Below are positions 32,932-33,089 of a stretch of 64,000 nt of DNA, piece by piece. The stretch comes from Lentihominibacter sp. GTDB lineage: Bacteria > Bacillota > Clostridia > Peptostreptococcales > Anaerovoracaceae. Position 1 is the stretch's first letter, and every line of letters starts with the position of its first letter. The stretch is taken from the NCBI GenBank assembly GCA_051882875.1, contig JBJESQ010000043.1, positions 7,284 through 71,283 on the forward strand, given 5' to 3'. Made by a program: the position numbers and the translations under genes. Below the pieces are notes generated by a model. It had not been told where the DNA came from. It did not search any database and saw only the letters and a list, made by a program, of their open reading frames with translations.

Positions 32932-32955
32932 AAAAAACGGTTCCAAAAGAAACCG
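32932..32955 (-). terminator. Intrinsic terminator of the riboswitch expression platform
   Basis: Minus strand CGGTTTC-TTTT-GGAACCG then U6, lying between the aptamer and the SD of the surface protein gene. Confidence 0.78.
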
Positions 32956-32976
32956 ACTTGAGCGCAATTATTCTCA

Positions 32977-33089
32977 GCAATTCCTTTCCAAAGTGCGGGA
33001 GGCACAGCTGTTTCCGGCTGCACCCTGTCGTCCTCAGACCGTAGACCACCCTCCGGATAGCCCCAAAGGTCTTTCGGCTCGAAAATGCT
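32977..33089 (-). ncRNA. Moco riboswitch (Moco RNA motif)
   Basis: Minus strand TTTCGAGCCGAAAGACC...GGTCTACGG...AGGGTGCAGCCGGAAACAGCTGTGCCTCCCGCACTTTGGAAAGG. It has the P2 stem, a P4 stem with a GAAA-containing loop, and the diagnostic CCTCCCG...TTTGGAAAGG end. There is no clear P3. Confidence 0.88.

What the first reader, a model, noticed from the sequence alone, without database searches (positions are those of the whole stretch)
32932..33089. Opposite (OFF) logic predicted for the transporter riboswitch, giving a supply/demand circuit at one locus
Seen: here the terminator (CGGTTTC-TTTT-GGAACCG-U6) lies wholly downstream of the aptamer, so both can fold together. The P2 5' strand CCGAAAGA can alternatively pair over 8 nt with TCTTTTGG in the terminator. 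Inference: uptake genes are switched off by cofactor while the AOR genes are switched on by it. This independently supports the idea that the operon supplies the cofactor.
Basis: inference. Interest (0 to 1): 0.65.

Follow-up and report, generated by a model that had tools for sequence, protein, structure and literature searches.

The report
Cofactor riboswitch that shuts off importer

Summary
Everything lies on the minus strand. A Moco/Tuco-family aptamer (Rfam RF01055, 45 bits, cut-off 36) spans 33096..32965. A separate intrinsic terminator follows (stem-loop 32955..32938, U6 32937..32932). Then comes an operon for a FecCD-type ABC importer.

It is no better than chance, costs the most energy, and is absent from most related leaders.

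A conventional antiterminator is much better supported. The conserved 3' core and P1 3' strand (GAAAGGAAUUGCUGAG, 32988..32973) pair with the linker, the terminator 5' arm and its loop (CUCAAGUCGGUUUCUUUU, 32962..32945). This helix is the predicted best fold exactly when the transcript ends at 32945. It beat 100 of 100 shuffled arms here, and it recurs in 9-10 of 12 related leaders.

OFF logic is therefore supported, and the proposed mechanism is not. The case is not new in kind. Eubacterium limosum has Tuco riboswitch-terminator leaders before "Fe-type" ABC transporters that rise under tungsten limitation (PMC11725836).

The "supply/demand circuit" stays an inference, for three reasons:
- The aldehyde oxidoreductase (AOR) leaders use a different aptamer core.
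- Two relatives place that ON-type element before the same uptake operon.
- OFF logic cannot tell metal uptake from cofactor uptake.

The parts
33119..33147 (-). Promoter-like site, TTGTAA-17-TATAAT. A second site lies at 33183..33155.
   Evidence: Consensus scan. This is a pattern match only.
32965..33096 (-). Moco/Tuco-family aptamer (RF01055).
   Evidence: cmscan gives 45 bits against a gathering score of 36, E=1.7e-07, over the full model 1-135. It is the only gathering-level hit in the 64 kb.
33081..33089 (-). P1 5' strand, AGCAUUUUC.
   Evidence: The full-length best fold pairs it with 32984..32976 (8 bp plus a U-U mismatch).
32976..32984 (-). P1 3' strand, GGAAUUGCU. It is shared between P1 and the antiterminator.
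33068..33077 (-). P2 5' strand, CCGAAAGACC. It pairs locally with GGUCUACGG at 33047..33039.
   Evidence: Both sides change together in orthologs. CCG/CGG becomes CUG/CAG in L091, and GACC/GGUC becomes AACC/GGUU in L092 (sequences, alignments).
33030..33039 (-). Doubtful mini-P3, GUC-UGAG-GAC. Its central UCUGAGG is a 7-nt insert relative to orthologs.
   Evidence: Infernal aligns P3 here with two of five pairs non-canonical. All seven related leaders aligned have the P3 columns deleted, including near-identical L084.
32973..32988 (-). Antiterminator 5' arm, GAAAGGAAUUGCUGAG (conserved 3' core plus P1 3' strand plus 3 nt).
   Evidence: It is the best fold of the 3' sub-sequence (-11.8 kcal/mol against -8.7 for the terminator). 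It is also the best fold of the prefix ending at 32945.
32945..32962 (-). Antiterminator 3' arm, CUCAAGUCGGUUUCUUUU (linker plus terminator 5' arm plus terminator loop).
   Evidence: 11 nt pair with the 3' core/P1-3' region, against a mean of 4.3 for shuffled arms; 0 of 100 shuffles reach it.
32932..32955 (-). Intrinsic terminator: stem-loop CGGUUUC-UUUU-GGAACCG (32955..32938) and U6 (32937..32932).
   Evidence: A homologous terminator is present in L084, L091, L092 and L076.
32943..32950 (-).
   Evidence: The complementarity is real but at chance level and is not conserved.
32893..32911 (-). Ribosome binding site GGGAGG (32911..32906) and start codon ATG (32895..32893) of the first gene.
   Evidence: The site is not meaningfully sequestered in the full-leader fold.
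25354..32895 (-). The controlled operon. In order: a 562-aa secreted Fn3-domain protein, a FecCD permease, an ABC ATPase, a Peripla_BP_2 binding protein, a 458-aa Big_2 protein, a MotA/ExbB-like protein, DUF2149, and a 170-aa protein with an Oxidored_molyb domain.
   Evidence: Pfam scan. The gene order is conserved in L033-L042. The binding protein's closest characterised PDB relative is MolA (HI_1472, 3psa/3psh), E=4.6e-19.

Best explanation
This is a transcriptional OFF riboswitch of the Moco/Tuco family.

Transcription probably starts near 33110. The aptamer (33096..32965) folds first.

If no cofactor is bound, the weak P1 helix (AGCAUUUUC with GGAAUUGCU) opens. Its 3' strand, together with the invariant GAAAG of the core, then pairs with the newly made CUCAAGUCGGUUUCUUUU (32962..32945). 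This gives a 16-bp antiterminator hairpin. It ties up the terminator 5' arm before the 3' arm (32944..32938) is made, so the polymerase reads into the importer operon.

If cofactor is bound, P1 and the 3' core are locked in the aptamer. The antiterminator cannot form, the hairpin 32955..32938 plus U6 forms, and transcription stops at about 32932.

Shown here: the elements, their mutual exclusivity, the energy ranking, and the recurrence of the design in relatives. Inferred: that a ligand binds, which ligand it is (Tuco is more likely than Moco, because orthologs lack P3), and the in vivo response.
For: - Family membership: RF01055 hit above the cut-off.
- Terminator: found by the consensus scan.
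- Sub-sequence fold: from the 3' core to the terminator the best fold is the antiterminator, -11.8 kcal/mol against -8.7 for the terminator alone.
- Two states of similar energy: aptamer+terminator -53.8, antiterminator -51.4.
- Order of events: prefix folding switches from closed P1 (-45.0) to the antiterminator (-47.5) when the 3' end is at 32945, and back to P1+terminator (-53.2) at 32938.
- Shuffle control: shuffling the terminator arm and loop never reproduces the pairing here (0 of 100). The same holds at 0.04 or less for L084, L091, L092, L073 and L025.
- Related leaders: in 12 related transporter leaders the terminator 5' arm pairs with the 3' core/P1-3' region in the prefix best fold in 9-10 cases. 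That region is the best duplex partner in 6 and among the top two in 10.
- Match of arm to P1: terminators of different sequence fit their own P1 3' strand. L073 has AAAAGGAG with CUCCUUUU. L091 has GAAAUCG with CGGUUUC.
- Wider family: 17 of 20 further riboswitches with separate terminators carry a complement of at least 6 nt to the GGAAAGG region in the 5' arm.
- Precedent: E. limosum Tuco riboswitch-plus-terminator leaders (fetABC1, focA) are up-regulated under tungsten limitation (PMC11725836).
Against: - The antiterminator has three G-U pairs in its core.
- When the upstream segment rather than the arm is shuffled, it is only marginally better than chance (p about 0.05).
- At full length the terminator state is the best fold and holds 96% of the ensemble. 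Switching must therefore be kinetic, which was not simulated explicitly.
- In relatives with stronger terminators (L091, L092, L076) the sub-sequence best fold keeps the terminator.
- L081 shows no such pairing.
- The contiguous-helix statistic across 20 other leaders is only modestly above background (6.4 against 5.3-5.7 bp).
- Ligand binding is untested for this aptamer.
Confidence: 0.75

Rival explanations
1. It is an OFF switch, but the antiterminator is the long-range pairing of the P2 5' strand CCGAAAGA (33077..33070) with UCUUUUGG (32950..32943) in the terminator loop and 3' arm.
For: The 8-bp complementarity exists, -7.7 kcal/mol. An 8-bp analogue of different sequence (CUGGGACG with CGUUUCGG) exists in L076, and the identical one in L084.
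Against: - It is at chance level: 100% of shuffled aptamers reach the energy, and 9% of other windows reach 8 bp.
- It needs P2 to unfold. P2 is a local helix supported by paired changes in orthologs and is made about 120 nt earlier.
- It is 6.1 kcal/mol above the best fold and 3.7 above the other antiterminator, with ensemble probability 0.000.
- It is absent (3-6 bp, background) in 9 of 12 related leaders, including the close orthologs L091 and L092.
- It uses the terminator's 3' arm, so it cannot form before the terminator itself can.
Confidence: 0.07
2. There is no ligand-dependent termination. The hairpin is a constitutive, leaky attenuator, or the aptamer acts through another route such as Rho, RNA stability or translation.
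For: The terminator is short (7 bp, -8.7 kcal/mol). At equilibrium it dominates. No experimental data exist.
Against: - A mutually exclusive antiterminator involving P1 is present and recurs in relatives.
- The ribosome binding site is about 45 nt downstream and is not sequestered.
- The E. limosum precedent shows a tungsten-responsive transcript change for the same layout.
Confidence: 0.1
3. The platforms are opposite, but they are not one circuit driven by one cofactor. The canonical-core aptamer (transporter) and the variant-core aptamer (AOR leaders) sense different ligands, for example Moco against Tuco, or cofactor against a precursor.
For: - The conserved core differs: CCUCCC...UGGAAAGG against CCUGCC...GCGAAGGAG. 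The variant scores only 27-33 bits.
- In G153 the two types lie in series before the uptake operon, and only one consensus promoter was found on the operon strand, upstream of both.
- In G159 the ON-type alone precedes the orthologous operon.
- The window also encodes molybdenum enzymes of the xanthine dehydrogenase family.
Against: Both types lack P3 in relatives. By the 2008 correlation that points to Tuco for both (PMC2408646). A series ON+OFF pair for one ligand could also act as a band-pass filter. No binding data exist.
Confidence: 0.3

Closest known systems
Tuco riboswitches of Eubacterium limosum before fetABC1 and focA (PMC11725836)
   Same: A P3-less RF01055 aptamer followed by a separate hairpin with a poly-U tract, placed before an 'Fe ABC-type' transporter operon in a gut Clostridia member. 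The transcripts rise under tungsten limitation, which means OFF by cofactor. The same genome also has Tuco riboswitches before a tungsten oxidoreductase operon.
   Different: It is a different organism and family. I could not fetch the E. limosum sequences, so homology of the transporters is not shown. There the oxidoreductase switch is proposed to act on translation, not through an overlapping terminator. The authors read the transporters as iron importers.
Escherichia coli moaA Moco riboswitch (Regulski et al. 2008, PMC2408646)
   Same: Same aptamer family, and a genetic OFF switch. The paper also notes family members followed by intrinsic terminators and members before molybdate transporters.
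   Different: The moaA switch has a P3 stem, hides the ribosome binding site within P1 (translational control) and controls biosynthesis genes. Here there is a separate terminator, P3 is absent or vestigial, and the cargo is an importer operon.
MolBC-A (HI1470/71/72) type II molybdate/tungstate ABC importer of Haemophilus influenzae (PMC4031551; PDB 3psa/3psh)
   Same: A FecCD-type permease with a cluster-A (Peripla_BP_2) binding protein. MolA is the closest functionally characterised PDB relative of the binding protein here (E=4.6e-19).
   Different: Similarity is low. Uncharacterised structural-genomics proteins (4hn9, 4ovk) are closer. By my rough mapping the MolA ligand residues K221 and R264 are not obviously kept, but the numbering is uncertain. 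This operon adds large surface proteins, an ExbB-like/DUF2149 pair and Oxidored_molyb-domain proteins.

Membership tests
Moco/Tuco riboswitch aptamer (Rfam RF01055) | Covariance-model score at or above the curated gathering score over the full model | tested here: met
   45 bits against 36, model positions 1-135, E=1.7e-07.
Moco/Tuco riboswitch aptamer (Rfam RF01055) | Conserved core and helices: P1, P2, P4 capped by a GAAA tetraloop, P5, and the motifs CGAG, AGGG, CCUCCCG and UGGAAAGG | tested here: met
   All are present in the cmscan alignment. P2 keeps pairing through changes on both sides in orthologs (CCG/CGG to CUG/CAG, GACC/GGUC to AACC/GGUU).
Moco/Tuco riboswitch aptamer (Rfam RF01055) | Location in the 5' leader of genes for Mo/W transport, cofactor synthesis or cofactor-using enzymes | tested here: met
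   It lies in the leader of an operon with a MolA-like binding protein and Oxidored_molyb-domain proteins, flanked by AOR genes.
Moco/Tuco riboswitch aptamer (Rfam RF01055) | Direct, selective binding of Moco or Tuco | not testable with these tools
   No binding assay is possible. Direct binding was not tested even in the founding paper, because the cofactor is unstable (PMC2408646).
Tuco-associated (P3-lacking) subtype | Absence of the P3 stem | tested here: inconclusive
   The window has a 7-nt insert that can form a 3-bp GUC/GAC hairpin. Infernal aligns it as P3 with two non-canonical pairs. All seven related leaders aligned, including near-identical L084, have P3 deleted.
Transcriptional OFF riboswitch (terminator/antiterminator platform) | An intrinsic terminator downstream of the aptamer and upstream of the start codon | tested here: met
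   32955..32938 plus U6. It is conserved in orthologs.
Transcriptional OFF riboswitch (terminator/antiterminator platform) | An antiterminator that excludes both the ligand-stabilised helix (P1) and the terminator | tested here: met
   32988..32973 with 32962..32945. It is beyond shuffled arms and recurs in 9-10 of 12 relatives.
Transcriptional OFF riboswitch (terminator/antiterminator platform) | Ligand-dependent increase of termination in vitro or in vivo | not testable with these tools
The only evidence is the indirect E. limosum precedent.

The most novel reading that the evidence does not exclude
The FecCD-type 'iron' ABC systems that sit behind Tuco-type riboswitches in gut Clostridia, here and in E. 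limosum, may in fact be tungsten/molybdenum importers, carrying either the oxyanion or a pterin-bound form. They would be wired with two distinct aptamer subclasses of opposite polarity. In some relatives (G153) an ON-type and an OFF-type element lie in series before the same operon, which would make expression a two-signal or band-pass function of cofactor status.
Probability: 0.3. Interest if true: 0.55.

Novelty: new member of a known kind. Interest (0 to 1): 0.28.

Why it matters
The finding corrects how this switch is wired, which decides which mutations would test it.

It adds a clear aptamer/antiterminator/terminator example for a riboswitch class whose platforms are little described.

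It links Tuco-type riboswitches to a MolA-like type II ABC importer family that has been annotated, and published, as an iron transporter. If that importer really carries tungsten or molybdenum in some form, it bears on how gut anaerobes acquire tungsten for aldehyde oxidoreductases.

In itself, an OFF riboswitch before an uptake operon is what a specialist would expect.

Tried and rejected
- My first idea, GAAAGGAA with UUUCUUUU (-3.9 kcal/mol): replaced by the longer register found by folding.
- Translational control: the ribosome binding site is far downstream and unpaired.
- Automatic platform classification of about 60 family hits: too noisy. It picked the P4/P5 region or antiterminators as 'terminators'. 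I used it only as a source of clear terminator sequences.
- Supplement of PMC11725836 (leader figures, locus tags): not held.
- MolA ligand residues (K221, R264, Y114, Y301) mapped onto the binding protein: inconclusive because of numbering and a weak alignment.
- 'The organism cannot make the cofactor': rejected for this genome, which has moaA, moaC and two moeA, plus ModA-like and PBP_like_2 binding proteins.

Full report
**What is there.** The feature is on the minus strand. cmscan finds one gathering-level Rfam match in the 64 kb: RF01055 (Moco/Tuco aptamer) at 33096..32965, 45 bits against a cut-off of 36.
- Two promoter-like sites lie upstream (33183..33155 and 33147..33119).
- In the full-length best fold, P1 is AGCAUUUUC (33089..33081) with GGAAUUGCU (32984..32976).
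- Twenty nucleotides further on lies CGGUUUC-UUUU-GGAACCG (32955..32938) followed by U6 (32937..32932). The consensus scan reports it as a terminator, and it folds alone at -8.7 kcal/mol.
- GGGAGG (32911..32906) and ATG (32895) start the first gene.

**The operon behind it.** It encodes a secreted Fn3-domain protein, a FecCD permease, an ABC ATPase, a Peripla_BP_2 binding protein, a Big_2 surface protein, a MotA/ExbB-like protein, DUF2149 and a small Oxidored_molyb-domain protein. This order is conserved in ten gut metagenome-assembled genomes, one of them labelled Lentihominibacter.

The terminator lies wholly downstream of the aptamer, and the 8-nt complementarity CCGAAAGA (33077..33070) with UCUUUUGG (32950..32943) exists at -7.7 kcal/mol. 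It does not stand out.
- Every one of 1000 dinucleotide-shuffled aptamers reaches that duplex energy against the terminator.
- 9% of other 12-nt aptamer windows give a contiguous helix of 8 bp or more.
- Forcing the pairing costs 6.1 kcal/mol relative to the best fold, and its ensemble probability is 0.000.
- CCGAAAGACC is the 5' strand of P2 and pairs locally with GGUCUACGG (33047..33039). That helix keeps pairing through changes on both sides in orthologs: CCG/CGG becomes CUG/CAG in L091, and GACC/GGUC becomes AACC/GGUU in L092.

**A better antiterminator.** Folding only the 3' part, from the conserved UGGAAAGG to the U-tract, gives a 16-bp hairpin as best fold, not the terminator. GAAAGGAAUUGCUGAG (32988..32973) pairs with CUCAAGUCGGUUUCUUUU (32962..32945), at -11.8 kcal/mol.
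- It uses the invariant 3' core and the whole P1 3' strand on one side. On the other side it uses the linker, the terminator 5' arm and the loop. It therefore excludes both P1 and the terminator.
- At full length the two states are close: -53.8 for aptamer plus terminator and -51.4 for the antiterminator.
- Prefix folding shows the classic order. P1 is closed up to 32949. The antiterminator is the best fold (-47.5 against -45.0) when the 3' end is at 32945..32942. P1 plus terminator returns once 32938 is made.
- When the terminator arm and loop are shuffled, 0 of 100 versions pair as many nucleotides (11) with the 3' core/P1-3' region; the mean is 4.3.
- Shuffling the upstream segment instead gives only p of about 0.05.

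**Comparative evidence.** I collected 12 related leaders before homologous importer operons or their first genes: the window, L084, L091, L092, L076, L081, L073, L074, L083, L019, L005 and L025.
- All have the aptamer followed by a separate terminator.
- In the prefix best fold the terminator 5' arm pairs with the 3' core/P1-3' region in 9-10 of 12.
- That region is the best duplex partner in 6 and among the top two in 10.
- The pairing exceeds shuffled arms at 0.04 or less in six leaders.
- Terminators of different sequence match their own P1 3' strand. L073 has AAAAGGAG with CUCCUUUU, and L091 has GAAAUCG with CGGUUUC.
- In 17 of 20 further family members with separate terminators, the 5' arm carries at least 6 nt complementary to the GGAAAGG region. 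The length statistic there is only modestly above background.
Elsewhere it is at background.
- L081 fits neither model.

**Direction of control.** The layout is that of a transcriptional OFF switch: ligand locks P1 and the 3' core, the terminator forms, and the importer genes are not transcribed. The ribosome binding site is not sequestered. The founding paper notes family members with intrinsic terminators and members before molybdate transporters, and shows OFF behaviour for E. coli moaA (PMC2408646).

A closer precedent is Eubacterium limosum (PMC11725836). It has five P3-less Tuco riboswitches. Two of them (fetABC1, an 'Fe ABC-type' transporter, and focA) have an aptamer plus a terminator hairpin and are up-regulated under tungsten limitation. 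So this is a new member of a known kind.

**Which cofactor.** Infernal aligns a P3 in the window with two non-canonical pairs. All seven related leaders aligned, including near-identical L084, have P3 deleted. The window differs by a 7-nt insert. By the 2008 correlation (PMC2408646) this points to Tuco rather than Moco, but it is not settled.

**The circuit claim.** The three AOR leaders (36067..35956, 35819..35708 and about 25310..25175) are sub-threshold RF01055 matches of 27-33 bits. They lack P3 and have a different core, CCUGCC...GCGAAGGAG. Their terminators include the P1 3' strand GGAG in the 5' arm, so P1 and terminator exclude each other, which is an ON architecture. Opposite platforms at one locus are therefore real.

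Three things weaken the reading 'one cofactor turns uptake off and AOR on'.
1. The aptamer cores differ, so the ligands may differ.
2. In relative G159 the orthologous uptake operon is preceded only by the ON-type element, with a promoter upstream of it. In G153 the ON-type and the canonical OFF-type lie in series, and the only consensus promoter on the operon strand lies upstream of both.
3. OFF control is what metal importers also show, so it does not point to import of intact cofactor.

This genome has moaA, moaC and two moeA. It also has a ModA-like and a PBP_like_2 binding protein. The binding protein's closest characterised relative is MolA of the MolBC-A molybdate/tungstate importer (PMC4031551). 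Similarity is low, and my rough residue mapping was inconclusive.

**Limits.** All structural statements rest on thermodynamic prediction and comparison. Earlier notes of this scan were read after my own analysis and used only as leads.

Noticed in passing
L104 9181-9337 (G159:C2, minus strand): In relative G159 the orthologous uptake operon (binding protein 65% identical) is preceded only by the AOR-type variant aptamer with an overlapping terminator (ON architecture). A TTGACA-17-TAAAAT promoter lies upstream. There is no canonical OFF-type riboswitch.
   Followed up: partly
L105 3117-3699 (G153:C8, minus strand): In G153 an ON-type variant aptamer (3656..3545) and the canonical OFF-type aptamer plus terminator (3281..3117) lie in series before an Fn3-like first gene. 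The only consensus promoter on that strand is upstream of both. This may be two-signal or band-pass control. Compared with the window, the AOR gene and the second variant aptamer are missing.
   Followed up: partly
window 35708-36067 and 25175-25310, minus strand: Three P3-less variant-core aptamers (CCUGCC...GCGAAGGAG; 27-33 bits for the two that were scanned) sit before AOR genes. Their terminator 5' arm contains the P1 3' strand. The Fer4-AOR leader is conserved in L033, L034, L035 and L041.
   Followed up: partly
window 28296-29405, minus strand: The binding protein of the riboswitch-controlled importer is closer to MolA (the molybdate/tungstate binding protein, 3psa) than to siderophore or B12 binders. 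Its best PDB hits are uncharacterised gut-bacterial 'iron complex' proteins (4hn9, 4ovk). The 'Fe ABC-type' transporters behind Tuco riboswitches in E. limosum may belong to the same group.
   Followed up: partly
L091 and L092 (leaders of G156 and G154): The terminator 5' arm (GGUCGGUUUCC) is also strongly complementary to the P4 loop and 3' strand (GGGAAACCGG), at -14.6 and -18.9 kcal/mol. That is stronger than to the P1 3' region. The meaning is unknown. It may simply follow from the terminator resembling a reversed P4.
   Followed up: no
None of the other aptamer windows in that leader reaches 8 bp.
   Followed up: no
G000 C34:48507-50827; C25:14130-15865; C14:37176-37883: The same genome encodes MoaC, MoaA, two MoeA, a ModA-like binding protein next to moaA/moaC, and a PBP_like_2 binding protein. 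It can therefore make the pterin cofactor and has conventional oxyanion-type binding proteins.
   Followed up: partly
G000 C18:11346-11467 (+) and C12:60569-60694 (-): Two further canonical RF01055 riboswitches (66.6 and 59.1 bits) exist elsewhere in the genome. The downstream ORFs I tested had no clear Pfam family; one gave a weak DUF1667 match.
   Followed up: partly
window 10909-16679, minus strand: A second, paralogous cluster (Peripla_BP_2 binding protein, MotA/ExbB-like protein, FecCD permease, ABC ATPase) has no Rfam riboswitch hit.
   Followed up: no
window 36268-39222 and 41994-44963, plus strand: Two xanthine-dehydrogenase-family molybdenum enzymes (Fer2, Ald_Xan_dh_C, MoCoBD_1/2) are each followed by a Fer4_20/CCG/FAD protein. 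The locus therefore mixes Mo-type and W-type enzymes.
   Followed up: no
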